Shown here piece after piece: positions 1 through 32,183 of a stretch of 32,183 nt of DNA. Within the stretch, counting starts at the first letter, position 1; each line of letters starts with the position of its first letter. The translations under genes and the position numbers were made by a program. Under the pieces are notes generated by a model. The model had not been told where the DNA came from. It searched no databases and saw nothing but the letters and a program-made list of their open reading frames with translations. Source of the DNA: a virus (taxonomy: Duplodnaviria > Caudoviricetes); IMG/VR virus record IMGVR_UViG_3300011335_000411, positions 1-32,183 of that record; one strand, given 5' to 3'.

Positions 1-1
1 C

Positions 2-148
2 CATCGTGTTGATCACATAGCACCTGAGAAGAGAATCACCGTACTTTCGTTTGAAAGAAACGAGGACAAGGAGATTGAGATGCTTGACCGATTGAAATGG
101 GCGACTGAGTATTATGATGAGTATTATTCATTGCTTGAGGCTAAGTAA
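2..148 (+). CDS. 3' end of a divergent YqaJ/lambda-exo-like exonuclease (partial)
   Basis: Translates HRVDHIAPEKRITVLSFERNEDKEIEMLDRLKWATEYYDEYYSLLEAK*, which aligns by eye with the C-terminus of 29011-29682 (HLFSHIPKNRRVKVFYVQKDESVIERIKEQVELCREYY). Confidence 0.7.
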   Translation, partial: HRVDHIAPEKRITVLSFERNEDKEIEMLDRLKWATEYYDEYYSLLEAK

Positions 149-216
149 CAAATCAATAAACCAAAAGGGATAAAAGTTGCCCCTTATATTAAATAGAAAT
201 GATAAATAAGAATAAG

Positions 217-342
217 ATGAAACAGTACAAAAACAACTACGGAAAAGTAGAAGAAGATTATTCAGGCAAAGCACTATTCGTGTTTTTCTTGATTGGAATG
301 GTTATCATTTCAGCAGTAAACTATTTAATTTTTAACCTTTAA
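217..342 (+). CDS. 41-aa cassette membrane micro-protein (MKQYKNN...LIFNL)
   Basis: Preceded by partial motif TAAATAAGAATAAGATG; one hydrophobic stretch; stop falls inside the next motif (AAC CTT TAA). Confidence 0.7.
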   Translation: MKQYKNNYGKVEEDYSGKALFVFFLIGMVIISAVNYLIFNL

Positions 343-354
343 ACTAAAATAAAA

Positions 355-606
355 ATGAACACAAAAAAACAATTAACAGCAGTAGAATTTTATGCAGAAG
401 GATTGGAAAACTTGCAGCACAACCCACTTGAAAAAAATGGCTATGATAATGCCAAACAAAGGTTGCTTGAAAAAGCAATGGCAATGTCAGAAGATGAAAA
501 CCACAAAGCCTATTTGAAAGGGCATGAAGTTGGATTTATGAAAGCAATGGAACAAATAAATGTATTAATTAATGAACATGATGGATTAAGTCCAATTAAC
601 ATTTAA
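355..606 (+). CDS. Cassette protein, TAVE family (83 aa)
   Basis: Motif variant at 334-357; LTAVEF...AMAMSE resembles 30540-30743; stop falls inside the motif at 598. Confidence 0.8.
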   Translation: MNTKKQLTAVEFYAEGLENLQHNPLEKNGYDNAKQRLLEKAMAMSEDENHKAYLKGHEVGFMKAMEQINVLINEHDGLSPINI

Positions 607-1407: not shown

Positions 1408-1650
1408 ATGGAAAACAAATTAAATTCGGGTGCAATCTTTAAGAACGACAAAAAGACGAAAGACACACATCCAGACTACAGAGGAAAAGTAAACGTAAAC
1501 GGTAAGGAAATGGAAGTTGCCTTATGGATTAAAGAGGGTAAAGCTGGCAAGTTCTTTTCAGCTTCATTTAGCGAGCCTTACGTAGCACCAGAAACAATGG
1601 AACGCAGACCAGTATCAGACGCAATGGACGACACCGACCTGCCCTTCTGA
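1408..1650 (+). CDS. Probable single-stranded DNA-binding protein (DUF736-like)
   Basis: GAIFKNDKK..HPDYRG..ALWIK..GKFFS motif and acidic DDTDLPF tail; ATG 1408 is preferred over GTG 1348. Confidence 0.75.
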   Translation: MENKLNSGAIFKNDKKTKDTHPDYRGKVNVNGKEMEVALWIKEGKAGKFFSASFSEPYVAPETMERRPVSDAMDDTDLPF

Positions 1651-1871
1651 TGTACATTGACGAGGGAGGATTGCGAAAGCAATTAGAGATGTTGCTTCGT
1701 ACCAAAACACGAAACCAAATTGTGCAAGAGATAAAGTCAAACACAGGAAGATTCCATCAATACCAAATAGACAAGTTTCTACAGGGAAAGGATGTAACAC
1801 TTTGCACGGTGATAAAGTTAGATAACTACATATCACGAGAGATTTACTTAAACAATTTAGAGCCACTTTAA
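1650..1871 (+). CDS. Small putative helix-turn-helix DNA-binding protein
   Basis: QYQIDKFLQGKDVTLCTVIKL resembles an XRE-like HTH; coupled to the SSB stop. Confidence 0.5.
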   Translation: MYIDEGGLRKQLEMLLRTKTRNQIVQEIKSNTGRFHQYQIDKFLQGKDVTLCTVIKLDNYISREIYLNNLEPL

Positions 1872-1885
1872 CAGGTGGCTTTTTC
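1860..1885 (+). terminator. Intrinsic terminator ending the recombination/cassette operon
   Basis: AGCCACTT-TAAC-AGGTGGCT stem followed by a T-run. Confidence 0.7.
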
Positions 1886-2867: not shown

Positions 2868-3288
2868 ACCAACATCAGGAGAATCAGAAGCAGACTTCTT
2901 AAAGAGATGTATGTCTGACGATAAAATGATAAGCGAGTACGACCAAGAACAACGTGCTGCAGTTTGTCGTTCTACTTATTCAGAGAAACTTGCAGGAGAA
3001 AAGATATCATTTGATTACGATGGGACATTCTCAACTGCAAAAGGATTTGACAGAGCAGTAAGTTTGATTGAATCAGGTGCAGATGTTTACATTATATCAG
3101 CTAGAGATTCAAAAGAAGGAATGCTACCAAGAGCAAACAAAGCAGGAATACTATTCTCACGAGTTTACGCTACTGGAAGCAATGATGCAAAAGTACAAAA
3201 GGTAAAAGAATTAAACATTACTGTTCACTATGACAATAATCAAGACGTAGTTAATCAACTACCAAACGTAGGTAGACTTTTTACATAA
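2854..3288 (+). CDS. Two-domain protein: small Cys-containing N-domain plus HAD-superfamily domain
   Basis: N-terminus MPIPKP..FLKRCM..QRAAVC; C-terminal HAD motifs ISFDYDGT, IISAR, K, HYDNN. Confidence 0.7.
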   Translation: MPIPKPTSGESEADFLKRCMSDDKMISEYDQEQRAAVCRSTYSEKLAGEKISFDYDGTFSTAKGFDRAVSLIESGADVYIISARDSKEGMLPRANKAGILFSRVYATGSNDAKVQKVKELNITVHYDNNQDVVNQLPNVGRLFT

Positions 3289-22739: not shown

Positions 22740-22922
22740 ATGGCTATAACCTTAAAGCGAATACCCCTTCGCTAAATAATCTTTGTAATAAGTAGCACGT
22801 GTCACACTTTTTAAAATAATTCTGTCGCATATTTATCGGATATTTGCGACATTTTACCTTTGTTCTATTACAAGAATTTCACAATTTTACCCTTGTTTTG
22901 TAACAAACATTTGCCACTATTT
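22738..22922. other. Non-coding stack of different palindromic, operator-like sites
   Basis: For example AGCGAA-N6-TTCGCT 22756-22773, TGTCGCA-N15-TGCGACA 22823-22851, TTGTT-N4-AACAA 22893-22906. Confidence 0.55.
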
Positions 22923-22996
22923 CTATTTATTGGCTTTTGTACACCTAGTAAAATCAAGCATTTTAAAAATAAATGTAAAAAAGTGAAAAAAAATTG

Positions 22997-23026
22997 TTGA
23001 TAATTGAAACCTTTGTTTTATATTTG
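22997..23026 (+). promoter_or_regulatory. Bacteroidetes housekeeping (early) promoter
   Basis: TTG-N19-TATATTTG; shares TTTATATTTGCATATAA with the promoter at 28437. Confidence 0.8.
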
Positions 23027-23059
23027 CATATAATTAATTCACAAACTAATTAACACGCT

Positions 23060-26580: not shown

Positions 26581-26867
26581 GACTAAAACTACTTTACATC
26601 AAAGGACTTATACAAAAGAACATTTGGAAAGTAAAGCTAACAAGAGAAGAGCTGCAGGAGAAAAGACCATCAGCAGTTGCATACATTAACGGAGCGAAAG
26701 ACACAGAGAACGATTTAAAGCAAGTTGAACAAGCAATACACGAACTCGAAACAGAACTACGATTACAGGGTAGAGAAATCATCAGATGTCTGCAGATAAA
26801 CGGAGAATTAAAAAAGAAAATTGAAGAATTGGAACACGAATTAAAATACAAAAACGTAGAATTATGA
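26571..26867 (+). CDS. Coiled-coil protein (98 aa)
   Basis: Heptad-rich sequence; its 3' end is duplicated at 27252-27286. Confidence 0.75.
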   Translation: MDIGLKLLYIKGLIQKNIWKVKLTREELQEKRPSAVAYINGAKDTENDLKQVEQAIHELETELRLQGREIIRCLQINGELKKKIEELEHELKYKNVEL

Positions 26868-27249: not shown

Positions 27250-27282
27250 ATAACACGAACTTAAATACAAAAATGTAGAACT

Positions 27283-27624
27283 ATGAATAACAAAGAGAAA
27301 TTTTTAGAGTTAGTTTCCGATGAAGAAACGCAAACAATTGAACGAGCAAAAACACGAATGACTAAACACCACAAACTAGTAACACTATCAGCAGTATTAC
27401 CTGTATTAGCTGACTTCATTGATGACCTTAATGAGCAGTATGTTTTTAAACAAGACTTGAAACGTAAAGCAAACATACTAGCAGATGAGATTAGAAAAAC
27501 GGACTACAAAGTTCTACAGGTATATGGAGAGAAACGAGAAGAAATATACGCACAACAAGTAGACTTGCAGCTGCTATTTAGACAATGGATTGAAGAAACA
27601 ATAAAATTTGACGATGCGCTGTAA
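27283..27624 (+). CDS. Hypothetical protein (113 aa)
   Basis: ORF in the operon; an alternative start at 27358 is possible. Confidence 0.7.
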   Translation: MNNKEKFLELVSDEETQTIERAKTRMTKHHKLVTLSAVLPVLADFIDDLNEQYVFKQDLKRKANILADEIRKTDYKVLQVYGEKREEIYAQQVDLQLLFRQWIEETIKFDDAL

Positions 27625-28126: not shown

Positions 28127-28149
28127 TAAAACCTTTAAATCACAATAAT

Positions 28150-28236
28150 ATGACAATAATTTATGAATGTATATTAGGATTATGTATGATAATAAGTGGA
28201 TTATTATTTATAATATCAGTTTATCAAGAAAAATAA
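28150..28236 (+). CDS. 28-aa single-TM micro-protein behind a cassette motif
   Basis: Motif AACCTTTAAATCACAATAATATG at 28130-28152. Confidence 0.55.
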   Translation: MTIIYECILGLCMIISGLLFIISVYQEK

Positions 28237-28402: not shown

Positions 28403-28436
28403 AAAAGCAAATAAATAAAATTATTTAAAAAAATAG

Positions 28437-28466
28437 TTGTTTATATTAAAATAGTGTTTATATTTG
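28437..28466 (+). promoter_or_regulatory. Bacteroidetes housekeeping (early) promoter of the recombination/cassette operon
   Basis: TTG-N19-TATATTTG. Confidence 0.8.
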
Positions 28467-28489
28467 CATATAACAAAAACAATTTAACT

Positions 28490-29014
28490 ATGGAAAAATT
28501 ACTTAAAATTCAGGCGGAATTAAAATGTCCAAAGGGTAGCTTCAACTCATTCGGTAAATACAAGTACCGAAGTGCAGAGCAGATTTTAGAATCATTGAAA
28601 CCTGTGCTACAGAAACACGAAGCTACATTGGTTCTAACTGATGACATCATTCAAGTAGGTAACAAGCTATTTTTAAAGGCTACTGCAACACTTTCTGATT
28701 CTGATAGTGTAATTCATTCAAATGGATTCGCAGAACTCGGAGAACACAAAGGAATGTCATCTGAGCAATGTACAGGAACTGCATCAAGTTATGCACGTAA
28801 GTATGCTTTAAACGGACTATTCTTAATTGACGAAACGGAATCAGACCCCGATTCAAAAGATAACACTCCAGTACAACCAAAGAAACAAGCATTAGACTCT
28901 AAGAGATTCCAAGACGCAGTTAAGGCATTAAACGATGGCAAGATTACACGTCAATCATTAGAGGATAAATTTAATTTAACTGATGGTCAAATTGATATAT
29001 TAAACGCATTATGA
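28490..29014 (+). CDS. ERF-family single-strand annealing recombinase
   Basis: IQAELKCPK..NSFGKYKYRSAEQI; Q.TGTASSYARKYALNGLFLIDE..DPD; ATG 28490 lies downstream of the promoter. Confidence 0.9.
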   Translation: MEKLLKIQAELKCPKGSFNSFGKYKYRSAEQILESLKPVLQKHEATLVLTDDIIQVGNKLFLKATATLSDSDSVIHSNGFAELGEHKGMSSEQCTGTASSYARKYALNGLFLIDETESDPDSKDNTPVQPKKQALDSKRFQDAVKALNDGKITRQSLEDKFNLTDGQIDILNAL

Positions 29015-29682
29015 AAGTTAGATGCTCTGCTATAGGAAAAATTATGAGTAGTCCCCGTAACAAATCGGAGGTGCTTTCACAGACTGCAAAGAGTTACATT
29101 CACGAGTTAGTCTTGCAGGATAAATACGGAATCAGAAAAGAGTTTAGTTCACGTTACACGGACAAAGGAAATGAGGTAGAGAACGAATCAATCAACTTAG
29201 TTAACGAAGTGCTTGATGTTGGATTCATTTACAAGAATGAGGAATCATTTGAAAACGATTGGATTACAGGAACTCCCGATGTAAACACAGATGAAGTTTT
29301 GTTGGACGTTAAATCAAGTTGGGATGGTACAACATTCCCATTCTTTGAAACTGAAATACCCACAAAGGATTACTTTTACCAATTACAAGGCTATATGTGG
29401 TTAACTGGCAAACAACAATCCTTACTTTGTTACTGCTTAGTCGATACGCCTGCTGATATGGTTGCAAGTGAAGTTAGAAGAACTCACTACAATTTAAATA
29501 AAATAGAAGAGGATTTAGAATTAACAAAAGAGATTGAATCAAAACATTTATTCTCACACATTCCAAAGAACCGCAGAGTGAAGGTTTTCTACGTACAAAA
29601 AGACGAATCAGTCATTGAAAGAATCAAAGAGCAAGTTGAACTATGCCGTGAGTATTATAATACATTAATAAATTTCTTATGA
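29011..29682 (+). CDS. YqaJ/lambda-exonuclease-like PD-(D/E)xK exonuclease
   Basis: RCSAIG, KGNEVE, GTPD, DVKSSW, YFYQLQGYMWLTG. Confidence 0.85.
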   Translation: MKVRCSAIGKIMSSPRNKSEVLSQTAKSYIHELVLQDKYGIRKEFSSRYTDKGNEVENESINLVNEVLDVGFIYKNEESFENDWITGTPDVNTDEVLLDVKSSWDGTTFPFFETEIPTKDYFYQLQGYMWLTGKQQSLLCYCLVDTPADMVASEVRRTHYNLNKIEEDLELTKEIESKHLFSHIPKNRRVKVFYVQKDESVIERIKEQVELCREYYNTLINFL

Positions 29683-29954
29683 ACCAACAAATAGAAGATA
29701 AAATAGTATTACGTGTTTTGGCACGTTTTAACGAACGAAGTCAAGTAGGAATAGCTAAGTACAACACAACACTGGAAAGAACCGATTTAAGCACGTTAGA
29801 ATGGCTTAATCACGCACAAGAGGAGGCGATGGACTTTGTTCTTTACTTGGAGCGACTGAAAGACGAATACAAGATGCCATTTGCAGACAGATTAATGCAA
29901 GAAATGATTAAGCAAGAAAAGGAAAAAATTGATAGGCTTACAAAGCATTTATAA
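29679..29954 (+). CDS. Conserved phage protein (possible all-alpha NTP pyrophosphatase fold)
   Basis: GIAKYNTTL...WLNHAQEEAMDFVLY with an EExxD motif. Confidence 0.6.
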   Translation: MNQQIEDKIVLRVLARFNERSQVGIAKYNTTLERTDLSTLEWLNHAQEEAMDFVLYLERLKDEYKMPFADRLMQEMIKQEKEKIDRLTKHL

Positions 29955-30003
29955 ATCAAAATAGTGGCAAATGTTTGAATAATAACAATTAAATCAGAAT
30001 AAA

Positions 30004-30129
30004 ATGAAGATATTACACCTAATCAATGACACTTATCAAGTTGTAAGTGAGGATGAGCAGACAATTTTCTTTCAAGGTAGCCAAGAAGATTGTGAGAGAT
30101 ATAGAATGAATAAACTTTTTAACCTTTAA
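30004..30129 (+). CDS. 41-aa cassette protein (MKILHLINDTYQVV...)
   Basis: Bounded by motifs; paralog of 31439-31564. Confidence 0.8.
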   Translation: MKILHLINDTYQVVSEDEQTIFFQGSQEDCERYRMNKLFNL

Positions 30130-30140
30130 ATCATAATAAT

Positions 30141-30374
30141 ATGACAGCGGTAGAAAAAGCAAAAGATTTAGTTGAAAAATTTAACTATGAGTCAAAACAT
30201 TTTTTAATGTTAGACTCCAAACAATGTGCATTAATTGCAGTTGATGAGTGTATAAAATACGAACAAAAAATACGAACACAAATTCAATCGGTAAACTTCC
30301 CTAATTCATTTATAATTATTCTAAATGATGGAGTTTTTTGGGAGGAAGTAAAAAACGAAATTAGTAACCTTTAA
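30141..30374 (+). CDS. Cassette protein, CALIAVDE family
   Basis: Bounded by motifs. Confidence 0.85.
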   Translation: MTAVEKAKDLVEKFNYESKHFLMLDSKQCALIAVDECIKYEQKIRTQIQSVNFPNSFIIILNDGVFWEEVKNEISNL

Positions 30375-30383
30375 CAGAATAAG

Positions 30384-30521
30384 ATGAAAGTAATTAAAAT
30401 AATATTTATTGCATTATTGTTAAGTGCGTTTATTTGTATGATTGGGTTTTTAAAATACAAAGTATGGAGAGCAGAACACCCAAATGCAGAAACTTGGACT
30501 TTTTGGGTGTCAAGAAAATAA
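30384..30521 (+). CDS. 45-aa single-TM cassette protein
   Basis: MKVIKIIFIALLLSAFICMIGFL...; bounded by motifs. Confidence 0.75.
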   Translation: MKVIKIIFIALLLSAFICMIGFLKYKVWRAEHPNAETWTFWVSRK

Positions 30522-30539
30522 CCTTTAAATCAGAATAAT

Positions 30540-30743
30540 ATGACAGCAGTAGAATTTTTATTAAGACAATTTGCATTATTAGGATACGATGTGCATCAAT
30601 ATGAAACAATTATCAAAGAAGCCAAAGAAATGGAGAAGGAGCAGATAGAAAAAGCATATATATATGGAGCTGCTTATGGGATTGATATATCAAATAATTT
30701 AAGTCCCGACATATATTACAACGAAACCTTTAAATCCGAATAA
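30540..30743 (+). CDS. Cassette protein, TAVE...AKEMEKEQI...TFKSE family
   Basis: C-terminal TFKSE* is encoded by the motif itself. Confidence 0.85.
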   Translation: MTAVEFLLRQFALLGYDVHQYETIIKEAKEMEKEQIEKAYIYGAAYGIDISNNLSPDIYYNETFKSE

Positions 30744-30744
30744 G

Positions 30745-30876
30745 ATGACAGCATTAATTATAACACTATTTGTATTGGTAGCATCCGTGTTTTTCTACAT
30801 TGGAAAACACCAAGAGAGAATTGAGTGGAACAAGCTAATTAAAGACGGAATACTTCCTAAACCAAATAAAAAATGA
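30745..30876 (+). CDS. 43-aa single-TM cassette protein
   Basis: MTALIITLFVLVASVFFYIG...; motif upstream. Confidence 0.75.
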   Translation: MTALIITLFVLVASVFFYIGKHQERIEWNKLIKDGILPKPNKK

Positions 30877-31010
30877 TTTGGCACATACTACCTATTGATG
30901 ACCTAAAAGAACACGAAGAAGAAAGCACTTGTGAGTGTTATTCATCGGTTAAGATAGTAGATGGTGGTGATATGCTAATAATACATAATGCCTATGATGG
31001 CAGAGAATGA
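30873..31010 (+). CDS. 45-aa putative metal-binding micro-protein
   Basis: MIWHILPIDDLKEH...CEC...HNAYDGRE; ATGA-coupled. Confidence 0.7.
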   Translation: MIWHILPIDDLKEHEEESTCECYSSVKIVDGGDMLIIHNAYDGRE

Positions 31011-31032
31011 ATAACATTTAAATAAGAATAAG

Positions 31033-31278
31033 ATGACAGCAGTAGAAAAAGCAAAACAAATACACAGCACGCATTATTATGCAATAGCTGCAGATGGTTC
31101 GTACTCATTTGAAATAGCAAAAGAATGTGCATTGATTTCAGTTGATGAGATAATGAAAGCACCATTTGAAAACAGTTACTTGGAATTAGTTCCCGATTAC
31201 GCACCCGATTCTGATTGGTATTGGGATAAATTCAGAGAATATTGGGAGGAAGTAAAACACGAAATAAATAACCTTTAA
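31033..31278 (+). CDS. Cassette protein, CALISVDE family
   Basis: Bounded by motifs. Confidence 0.85.
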   Translation: MTAVEKAKQIHSTHYYAIAADGSYSFEIAKECALISVDEIMKAPFENSYLELVPDYAPDSDWYWDKFREYWEEVKHEINNL

Positions 31279-31289
31279 ATCAGAATAAG

Positions 31290-31427
31290 ATGAAAGAGAA
31301 TAAATTAGGAAGAATGTGGTATTCTAATCAAATTGGATTTATGATAAGTTGGGGAGTAGCAAGTATTCCAAACAGAAGATACATAAGTATTGACTTACCA
31401 TTTTTAATTATACAAATTTACCTTTAA
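31290..31427 (+). CDS. 45-aa cassette protein (MKENKLGRMWY...)
   Basis: Bounded by motifs. Confidence 0.75.
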   Translation: MKENKLGRMWYSNQIGFMISWGVASIPNRRYISIDLPFLIIQIYL

Positions 31428-31438
31428 ATCAGAATAAG

Positions 31439-31564
31439 ATGAAGATAGTAAACCTAATCAATGATACTTACCAAGTAGTAAATCAAGACGAATCAACCGT
31501 TTACTTTCAAGGTAGTAAAGAAGATTGTGAGAGATATAGAATGAGCAGACTTTTTAACCTTTAA
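31439..31564 (+). CDS. 41-aa cassette protein (MKIVNLINDTYQVV...)
   Basis: Bounded by motifs; paralog of 30004-30129. Confidence 0.8.
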   Translation: MKIVNLINDTYQVVNQDESTVYFQGSKEDCERYRMSRLFNL

Positions 31565-31575
31565 ATCAGAATAAC

Positions 31576-31809
31576 ATGACAGCAGTACAACAAATGCTCA
31601 AAGAGCTACAAGAGAAGTTTCCAAAGCAAATGGCAGATATGTATGACAGCAATCAGCTTTTATTAGAAGATATTGCTTTAAAAGCCAAAAAAATGGAGAA
31701 GGAAGAGAAGATTGAGTTTGCTTGTCAAGTTGCCGAAGCAAGTGCTATGAAGTACATACAAGGCAAGACAACAAGAATGATAGCAGAAGAATTATTAACT
31801 AAACAATAA
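31576..31809 (+). CDS. Cassette protein (copy of 618-851)
   Basis: Within the terminal repeat; one amino-acid difference. Confidence 0.85.
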   Translation: MTAVQQMLKELQEKFPKQMADMYDSNQLLLEDIALKAKKMEKEEKIEFACQVAEASAMKYIQGKTTRMIAEELLTKQ

Positions 31810-31814
31810 GAACA

Positions 31815-31940
31815 ATGAAAGAAGAACAACTTAAAGAAGCATTAGAAATAATCAAAAAATTTGTCAATGAATTTGATGAAGAAGGTGAAGTGTCTTGGAA
31901 TACAAGAGATGAAGCCGAGAATTTTTTAAATAACCTTTAA
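31815..31940 (+). CDS. 41-aa cassette protein (copy of 857-982)
   Basis: Within the terminal repeat. Confidence 0.75.
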   Translation: MKEEQLKEALEIIKKFVNEFDEEGEVSWNTRDEAENFLNNL

Positions 31941-31951
31941 ATCAGAATAAA

Positions 31952-32183
31952 ATGAAAATAACAATCGAACAATACGACCACAAAATCACATACGAAGTTC
32001 CTTACAACGATGTGAATCTGGAGCAGATGCTAGAGATACTCGAAAATCTACTAAAATGTACTGGGTACTGCTTCAGTGGTAATCTAGAGATAGTTGATGA
32101 TAGTACAGAGTTTAGTCAGGTGTCAACCAATTACAGAGATGGAACAATCGACTACGATACAATAAAAAACCAAATCAAAAATG
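31952..32183 (+). CDS. Copy of 994-1236, truncated at the window edge
   Basis: Within the terminal repeat. Confidence 0.8.
   Translation, partial: MKITIEQYDHKITYEVPYNDVNLEQMLEILENLLKCTGYCFSGNLEIVDDSTEFSQVSTNYRDGTIDYDTIKNQIKN

What the first reader, a model, noticed from the sequence alone, without database searches (positions are those of the whole stretch)
29984..32183. Integron-like array of mini-gene cassettes joined by a 23-bp stop/start adaptor, inside the recombination operon
Seen: ten copies of AACCTTTAAATCAGAATAA(N)ATG, 137-376 bp apart, separate about 12 genes of 41-81 aa. The motif ends the upstream gene in any frame: AAC CTT TAA gives 'NL*' (five genes, plus a 'YL*' variant), ACC TTT AAA TCM GAA TAA gives 'TFKSE*', and T+AA gives a stop at 30519. 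Its ATG then starts the next gene. The array lies between ERF + exonuclease and SSB, under one early promoter (28437) and one terminator (1860). Known: A at -3, -6 and -11 to -13 matches SD-independent Bacteroidetes initiation context. Phage single-strand annealing recombinases can use short homologies. Loosely analogous elements are T4-type PeSLs and mycobacteriophage start-associated sequences. Inference: the motif works as both translation signal and recombination site, letting promoterless genes be gained, lost and shuffled with no integrase.
Basis: partly seen in the sequence, partly recalled or inferred. Interest (0 to 1): 0.88.

Follow-up and report, generated by a model that had tools for sequence, protein, structure and literature searches.

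The report
Two-level gene-shuffling joints in Bacteroidota phages
A 23-letter DNA joint that ends one small gene and starts the next is repeated ten times in this phage and marks where gene neighbours change between many unrelated aquatic phages, and a second shared block inside one small-protein family marks where gene halves change partners, so these joints likely let phages swap whole genes and half-genes by short-homology recombination without an integrase.

Summary
Confirmed. Ten copies of a 23-bp stop/start joint separate 12 small genes between ERF-exonuclease and SSB (13 matches in the window vs 0.08 expected). The joint recurs in about 450 IMG/VR stretches; a second dialect (TFKQQEQ*) recurs in about 230. 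Among 46 relatives picked by exonuclease, 95 of 223 array genes start with a joint, against 0 of 778 outside. When two phages share a near-identical gene, the neighbour across a joint is unrelated in 87-91% of pairs, against 14-22% across other small-gene junctions, and homology ends at the joint. One cassette is 98-100% identical in an ERF phage and three 58-67 kb phages lacking a detectable ERF. New here: a 26-bp in-gene block marks where halves of one small-protein family change partners (14 homologues share only the window gene's N-half, 12 only its C-half, none both). Corrections: ERF and the joint are each not required, 1-595 is a second phage joined by the assembler, and excision was not seen in reads. 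It works like T4 PeSLs and phage 'boundary sequences', not like an integron. This scan reported the joint before on other genomes.

The parts
29984..30006 (+). Joint A copy 1 (2 mismatches) + ATG of 41-aa gene 30004-30129
30121..30143 (+). Joint A (ends FNL*; starts 77-aa gene 30141-30374)
30219..30248 (+). In-gene block of second family (CALIAVDE, phrog_21441); other copies at 31120 and 26924
30366..30386 (+). Joint A with 2-base deletion (ends SNL*; starts 45-aa gene 30384-30521)
30520..30542 (+). Joint A, exact (T+AA stop; starts gene 30540-30743)
30540..30743 (+). 67-aa 'TAV' family gene (MTAVE..AKEMEKEQI..YYNETFKSE), a chimera of an N-half and a C-half each found with other partners; predicted three helices 3-13, 18-45, 56-65
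30618..30643 (+). 26-bp in-gene crossover block (codes EAKEMEKEQ), inside the predicted central helix; diverged copies at 31681 and 723
30725..30747 (+). Joint A (ends TFKSE*; starts 43-aa gene 30745-30876)
30873..31010 (+). 45-aa gene without a joint at its start (ATGA overlap), phrog_2864
31013..31035 (+). Joint A (2 mismatches); starts 81-aa gene 31033-31278; 31016-31296 is 95% identical to a cassette of L186 that has other neighbours
31270..31292 (+). Joint A, exact (ends NNL*; starts 45-aa gene 31290-31427)
31419..31441 (+). Joint A (ends YL*; starts 41-aa gene 31439-31564, an 83-84% paralogue of 30004-30129)
31556..31578 (+). Joint A, exact (ends FNL*; starts 77-aa gene 31576-31809); point where homology with the second phage begins
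31797..31817 (+). Joint of dialect B (1 mismatch to TAAACAACAAGAACA); starts 41-aa gene 31815-31940
31932..31954 (+). Joint A, exact (ends NNL*; starts MKITI gene, complete at 994-1236)
28130..28152 (+). Extra joint A after NinG, outside the array, starting a 28-aa ORF
28459..28466 (+). Bacteroidota -7 promoter box (TAHHTTTG) ahead of ERF; promoter activity inferred
28490..29014 (+). ERF single-strand annealing protein
29011..29682 (+). Exonuclease (phrog_5715)
29679..29954 (+). Conserved 91-aa gene at the left edge of the array in relatives
1..595 (+). Segment of a second phage (other exonuclease tail, two other small genes, joints at 334 and 598) attached by the assembler through a shared cassette
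1408..1650 (+). SSB, right edge of the array in relatives
1859..1882 (+). Intrinsic terminator-like hairpin

Best explanation
The repeat is a portable gene junction shared by unrelated phages of likely freshwater Bacteroidota: it holds a stop for the gene before it and a start context for the gene after it, and it likely serves as the short homology at which general recombinases exchange, insert or delete whole promoterless genes. Shown: the stop in several frames, the fixed ATG, the confinement to the variable array, homology ending at the joint, exact joint-to-joint indels, and near-identical cassettes in unrelated phages. Inferred: strong, coupled translation (from Flavobacterium start rules) and crossover inside the 21-30 bp of identity during co-infection, by whichever annealing or RecA-type enzyme is present (ERF+exonuclease here, other enzymes in the larger phages). 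A crossover between two joints always gives correctly stopped and started genes under the one upstream promoter, so the joint would spread with the genes it moves. The commonest cargo family repeats the principle inside the gene: its start block, a 26-bp middle block and its end joint frame two variable halves that are exchanged in frame, likely within a continuous helix, giving a combinatorial family of small three-helix proteins. These likely act on variable host targets early in infection; that step is the weakest.
For: Repeat real and strand-specific. About 450 stretches with dialect A and 230 with dialect B. 95 of 223 array genes vs 0 of 778 outside in 46 exonuclease-picked loci. Neighbour unrelated across joints at >=95% gene identity: 147 of 169 upstream and 105 of 116 downstream, vs 34 of 177 and 14 of 97 at nearby joint-less junctions. 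By family 35 of 38 vs 72 of 188 (p 3e-10) and 27 of 33 vs 22 of 45 (p 0.004). Holds in motif-independent loci: 12 of 14 vs 15 of 30 and 8 of 9 vs 11 of 28 families (p 0.044, 0.019). Homology ends 15-22 nt before and mostly 5-7 nt after the ATG. Six exact joint-to-joint indels. A 248-265 bp cassette 98-100% identical in L190, L221, L261 and L264. Window cassette 95% identical to L186 whose core is 70-78%. Joint codons invariant in 46 of 46 genes. Half-gene swaps. pN/pS 0.24-0.27. Minimal pairing length 23-27 bp for Red-beta, and Erf shown to be an efficient recombinase (PMC3945230 passages).
Against: No recombination event was observed. The array has the same order in two studies and no supported deletion or circle joint appears in contigs. 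67 of 78 gene indels are at junctions without a joint (some are gene-calling artefacts). 22 of 80 relatives have no joint in the fetched stretch. The motif-independent test is only moderately significant, and half of the joint-less array families also break (15 of 30). The exact motif is also an ordinary gene start in three Flavobacterium chromosomes. Cargo function has no database support.
Confidence: 0.78

Rival explanations
1. The motif is only a strong translation start; genes arrive by illegitimate recombination anywhere, and selection keeps those that land behind a good start.
For: Both dialects carry all four favoured adenines and are unstructured. The exact motif starts a chromosomal gene in three Flavobacterium isolates. 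Most indels occur without a joint.
Against: Core genes of the window use many different start contexts and none matches the joint. Positions with no reported role in initiation are invariant, as are synonymous codons. Homology ends at the joint on both sides, and the empty allele is the exact recombinant in six cases. The in-gene block shows the same pattern with no start role.
Confidence: 0.1
2. The joint is the target of a dedicated site-specific or RNA-guided enzyme, or the binding site of a phage or host regulator (SAS-like), supplied in trans.
For: Near-invariant asymmetric sequence on one strand only, in phages with different recombination genes. A to B exchanges are rare: 1 of 321 pairs with joints on both sides.
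Against: No hairpin or inverted arms. No tyrosine recombinase in G000, G003, G004 or G006. Breakpoints spread over the joint and into shared codons beside it. Three different blocks (A, B, middle block) act alike, which points to homology rather than one site. Rare A-B exchange is also what homology predicts.
Confidence: 0.08
3. The mosaic junctions are chimeras made by assemblers at a 21-30 bp repeat.
For: The window's own start is a join of two phages. All data are metagenomic assemblies; no isolate among 50,697 phage records holds the array or the TAV gene.
Against: Contigs of a second study reproduce the array letter for letter over 29828-31043 and 31139-31950. The lasso join runs through 630 bp of shared cassette, not through the joint alone, and a single contig spans 1-647. 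Cassettes shared by unrelated phages carry substitutions under purifying selection.
Confidence: 0.04

Closest known systems
PeSL cassettes of T4-type phages (PMC2839356, passages read; PMC4122927, abstract read)
   Same: A repeated element between small unknown genes in a variable region, proposed site of homologous crossover that gains, loses and swaps genes; the authors also compare it with integrons.
   Different: A PeSL is a promoter plus stem-loop, so each cassette has its own promoter. This joint has neither; it is a stop plus start of about 23 bp under one shared promoter. It is shared letter for letter across unrelated phage groups of 30-224 kb, and there is an in-gene second level. 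Mini-circles are shown for PeSLs, not here.
'Boundary' or linker sequences of mosaic phages (as summarised in PMC3029335, passages read)
   Same: Short conserved sequences at gene boundaries that allow homologous recombination between otherwise unrelated modules.
   Different: That paper says such sequences cannot be found at most mosaic boundaries and gives one ~50-bp example in mycobacteriophages. Here two standard sequences mark hundreds of junctions, carry the stop and start, and can be tested statistically.
Start Associated Sequences (SAS/ESAS) of Cluster K mycobacteriophages (PMC3203893, passages read)
   Same: Asymmetric repeat just upstream of ATG of non-structural genes, one orientation, sometimes holding the upstream stop.
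   Different: SAS is 13 bp, Shine-Dalgarno-like and limited to one cluster; the passages read propose a translation role, not recombination.
Integrons and phage CALINs (PMC9892861, abstract read)
   Same: Array of promoterless genes behind one promoter, each bounded by a repeat.
   Different: No IntI, no attI, no hairpin attC; exchange appears homologous rather than site-specific.

Membership tests
Integron / CALIN | Integron integrase (tyrosine recombinase) in or near the array | tested here: not met
   No PF00589 match in G000 (100% complete; control rings in 14 of 14); none among 65 ORFs in PHROGs. CALINs lack it by definition.
Integron / CALIN | attC: imperfect palindrome that folds into a hairpin as single-stranded DNA | tested here: not met
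   Four exact copies with flanks fold to 0 to -2.4 kcal/mol on either strand.
Integron / CALIN | Promoterless genes behind one upstream promoter | tested here: met
   One TAHHTTTG box at 28459, none on + through the array; activity not tested.
PeSL | Each element holds an early promoter | tested here: not met
   No Bacteroidota -7 box in or beside the joints; the element ends 1 base before ATG.
PeSL | Stem-loop or terminator in each element | tested here: not met
   No stable fold.
PeSL | Indels and replacements map to the element | tested here: met
PeSL | Mini-circles formed by recombination between elements | tested here: inconclusive
   Only contigs were available; they drop rare variants and showed no supported joint.
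Boundary / linker sequences | Short conserved sequence at boundaries between unrelated modules in several phages | tested here: met
Boundary / linker sequences | Crossover by general homologous recombination within the sequence | not testable with these tools
   Inferred from breakpoints; needs an in vivo assay.
SAS (Cluster K) | Asymmetric repeat directly upstream of start codons of non-structural genes | tested here: met
   ATG at +20 in 213 of 228 matches, none on the other strand.
SAS (Cluster K) | 13-bp GGGATAGGAGCCC consensus with Shine-Dalgarno core | tested here: not met
   Different sequence; 0 of 71 called starts in the window have an SD-like word.

The most novel reading that the evidence does not exclude
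Aquatic Bacteroidota phages of unrelated groups share a two-level, integrase-free parts standard: two stop/start joints for whole genes and in-frame mid-gene blocks for half-genes. Together they run a community-wide combinatorial library, in which a three-helix scaffold with two independently swapped variable halves (about 80 types of each among some 90 genes sampled) is diversified to engage changing host targets such as defence proteins. This would be domain shuffling by short homology, comparable to exon shuffling but without introns or a dedicated enzyme.
Probability: 0.4. Interest if true: 0.92.

Novelty: new variant of a known kind. Interest (0 to 1): 0.78.

Why it matters
Whether phage mosaicism arises at conserved boundary sequences or by random illegitimate joins filtered by selection is an old question; PMC3029335 notes that boundary sequences are missing at most junctions. 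Here two defined 21-23 bp sequences mark hundreds of junctions across unrelated phages, breakpoints concentrate at them, and a simple two-copy deletion assay in Flavobacterium would test the idea directly. The in-gene block adds a route to new proteins, in-frame half-gene exchange, in an abundant family with no known function. It also warns that these repeats and shared cassettes can join different phages in assemblies, as at the start of this contig.

Tried and rejected
Isolate phages: no record among 50,697 holds the array (only ERF and exonuclease pieces) or the TAV gene. Exact 29-30 bp cassette starts found nothing in metagenome or viral contigs; the 77-aa cassette gave 2 distant loci. Reads: all joints listed have 33 letters or fewer on the short side and unknown or other letters between, so I treat them as other phages bearing the same blocks, not as excisions; contigs cannot show rare circles. 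Cargo function: no Pfam hit for the array genes; Atlas neighbours are only unnamed viral clusters; the fold model (pLDDT 83.5) has no PDB or BFVD match at E<=0.001, and its best Z of 4.7 among 48,161 chains is unremarkable for helices; this shows neither a new fold nor a function. attC, promoter and hairpin readings were rejected. ERF as the required enzyme was rejected. The single A-A-A indel (L196/L049) is not an exact product and was not counted. Half-swapping in the second family is thin: 2 swapped vs 1 intact pair among 11 genes. Host loci L206, L207, L212, L213 and L215 were dropped before the breakpoint counts. Literature: searches found no description of these motifs in the library; subscription papers and supplements were not seen and may bear on novelty.
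Full report
OBSERVATION. The repeat is real: 13 matches with up to 3 mismatches, all on the + strand, against 0.08 expected. Nine lie between 29984 and 31950, and a tenth with a 2-base deletion is at 30366. ERF, exonuclease, NinG and SSB are confirmed. One Bacteroidota -7 box precedes ERF and none lies on + within the array; a terminator-like hairpin follows at 1859-1882. The host is inferred to be Bacteroidota from that promoter box, from 0 of 71 called starts having an SD-like word, and from the A-rich starts described for Flavobacterium (PMC6847099, passages).

THE CONTIG IS A LASSO. 596-1225 repeats 31554-32183 with mismatches only at 601, 617 and 659, while 1-595 is unrelated to 30959-31553 and begins with the tail of a second exonuclease. 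In run X1 one contig covers 1-647 at depth 4 beside a main path at depth about 14. Run X4, from another study, holds 191-631. So a second phage carries the same cassette behind a different gene, and homology starts at the joint. X1 may be the source sample and is not independent. X3, from another study, reproduces 29828-31043 and 31139-31950 without a difference and runs from 31921 on to 1715, so the order is real and stable there. No supported deletion or circle joint was seen; contigs cannot show rare ones.

DISTRIBUTION. The exact 23-mer occurs in an estimated 450 IMG/VR stretches (124 loci fetched, contigs of 4-224 kb). The ATG sits at +20 in 213 of 228 matches and none is on the other strand. 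Of those 213, the upstream gene stops at offset 16 (TFKSE type) in 121, at 6 (NL type) in 35, at -1 in 25, at 10 in 3, and none was found in 29. In 80 relatives chosen by exonuclease, not by motif, the order NinG-ERF-exonuclease-(91-aa gene)-SSB is kept while the exonuclease-SSB gap ranges from 233 to 3740 bp. Most use a second dialect, AACCTTTAAACAACAAGAACAATG (TFKQQEQ*, ATGA overlap), found in about 230 stretches. Of the 80, 41 have B only, 12 A only, 5 both and 22 neither; in the 46 with both flanks, 95 of 223 genes in the gap start with a joint and 0 of 778 outside do. Both dialects place A at -3, -6, -12 and -13. Among 185,579 prokaryote genomes only 11 stretches match. Three are the same chromosomal gene start in Flavobacterium isolates; six others look phage-like by their small-gene arrays (my reading), and two were not inspected.

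BREAKPOINT TEST. I called 4419 genes in 338 loci (263 populations) with a simple caller, after dropping five host or short loci. For gene pairs at least 95% identical from different populations, the upstream neighbour is unrelated in 147 of 169 pairs with joints, 34 of 177 at nearby joint-less junctions and 45 of 322 at distant ones. Downstream the figures are 105 of 116, 14 of 97 and 51 of 227. By gene family: 35 of 38 vs 72 of 188 (p 3e-10) and 27 of 33 vs 22 of 45 (p 0.004). With exonuclease-picked loci alone the contrast holds but is weaker: 12 of 14 vs 15 of 30 and 8 of 9 vs 11 of 28 families (p 0.044, 0.019). Homology ends 15-22 nt before the ATG and mostly 5-7 nt after it. Of 78 X-Y-Z versus X-Z cases, six have dialect B at all three junctions and the empty allele is the exact recombinant. 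However, 67 have no joint, many at ATGA overlaps and some from gene-calling gaps, so the joint is a hotspot and not a requirement. Pairs are not phylogenetically independent; family counts reduce but do not remove this.

TRANSFER BETWEEN UNRELATED PHAGES. A 248-265 bp joint-to-joint cassette is 98-100% identical in L190, L221 (58 kb), L261 (66 kb) and L264 (67 kb), with unrelated DNA directly on either side, and is absent precisely from L184. L190 encodes ERF. The other three records show neither PF04404 nor the window's portal, while control L186 shows both (the L261 record is only 56% complete). The window's 31016-31296 is 95% identical to L186, whose core matches at 70-78%. Five records of 114-224 kb carry 1-9 joints and match neither the window's ERF nor its portal; one has a clear RecA. 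No tyrosine recombinase was found in the window's genome. So neither ERF nor an integrase is required.

A SECOND LEVEL INSIDE GENES. The commonest cargo family (MTAVE..AKEMEKEQI..YYNETFKSE; 105 distinct genes in my loci) has a 26-bp middle block. Its codons are fixed at choices that are rare elsewhere (GCC 86% vs 9%; GAG 74-85% vs 35%; CAG 88% vs 27%). Of 72 proteins returned for the window gene 30540-30743 (itself included), 66 could be split at the block: 14 share its N-half, 12 its C-half, none both (two of the 14 had C-halves too short to score). Among 86 locus genes, 25 pairs share one half only and 1 shares both. 18 of 22 high-identity pairs are partial, against 37 of 655 for joint-less small genes and 14 of 86 for other joint-led genes. 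L345, from a 61-kb record without ERF, matches the window over joint plus start, then diverges, then matches 123 of 128 bases from the middle block to the next ATG. The block is in one frame in 132 of 144 copies (2 in another frame, 10 without a called gene), and both halves show pN/pS near 0.25, as do joint-led genes overall (0.26), so the products matter. The model has helices 3-13, 18-45 and 56-65 (pLDDT 83.5), which puts the crossover inside the long helix, where a swap would keep the register. No function could be assigned.

MECHANISM. Shown: shared joints, breakpoints at them, exact indels, recent transfer across groups, in-frame half-gene chimeras. Inferred: crossover by general recombinases within 21-30 bp of identity during co-infection. 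PMC3945230 (passages) gives a minimal pairing length of 23-27 bp for Red-beta and 31-34 bp for RecA and shows Erf with its exonuclease to be as efficient as Red. Also inferred: strong coupled translation from the joint, and spread of the joint because crossovers at it give intact, expressed genes. Joint codons are invariant in 46 of 46 KQQEQ-ending genes from exonuclease-picked loci, which fits constraint or homogenisation at the DNA level. An early anti-host role for the cargo is a guess from position and diversity.

COMPARISON AND NOVELTY. It works like PeSLs (PMC2839356 passages; PMC4122927 abstract) and the boundary-sequence model (PMC3029335 passages), and it sits like SAS elements (PMC3203893 passages). 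It fails the defining tests for integrons (PMC9892861 abstract) and for PeSLs. Searches found no paper on these motifs; the library omits most subscription journals and I read no supplements. Earlier notes of this scan describe the same joint, and two motifs, on other genomes; I reached my reading before seeing them and do not count them as support. A search of those notes for the half-gene block returned nothing. Verdict: a real and well-supported new variant of boundary-sequence recombination, with an apparently undescribed in-gene level. Interest 0.78.

Noticed in passing
window, 24 sites on + (e.g. 1706, 2489, 3288, 5615, 6493, 7109, 8051, 9021) and 6 on -: The octamer AACACGAA is strand-biased and over-represented: 24 vs 6 in the window (AAACACGA 24 vs 3.6 expected on the circle), and 441 vs 34 in pooled relatives (99 expected). 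It is spread through core genes at roughly 0.6-1 kb steps over part of the genome; it could be a polar replication, recombination or regulator site.
   Followed up: partly
window 26833-26866 and 27252-27285: A third candidate junction repeat (AACACGAA..TAAATACAAAAA.GTAGAA.TATG) precedes two small genes upstream of NinG (family D5).
   Followed up: no
window 22976-23033 and 28416-28473: A 58-bp repeat (71% identical) holds both early promoter boxes (23019, 28459).
   Followed up: partly
window 22893-22930 and 29951-29988: A 38-bp inverted repeat (82% complementary) 7 kb apart; the right arm abuts the first joint of the array (I1).
   Followed up: no
window 1-595: Belongs to a second, co-occurring phage; the record is a lasso chimera with a 30,958-bp circle.
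   Followed up: yes
L207, L212, L213 at 3001-3023: The exact joint A is the start region of one chromosomal gene within a run of short related genes in three Flavobacterium isolates; possible origin of the joint, or coincidence.
   Followed up: partly
relatives L127-L191, directly after the exonuclease: Many different small genes are inserted between the exonuclease and the next conserved gene with ATGA overlaps kept on both sides and no joint: a second insertion hotspot with a different rule.
   Followed up: partly
window, whole circle: GATC (2 vs 99 expected), CCGG (0 vs 12), GCGC (2 vs 17) and GGCC (1 vs 8) are strongly avoided, suggesting host restriction pressure.
   Followed up: no
L022:3113, L098:301, L123:301: Joint A sometimes starts a core-type gene (an exonuclease in L022 and L098; an SSB-like gene in L123, by my reading of the sequence), so it is not strictly limited to accessory genes.
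   Followed up: no
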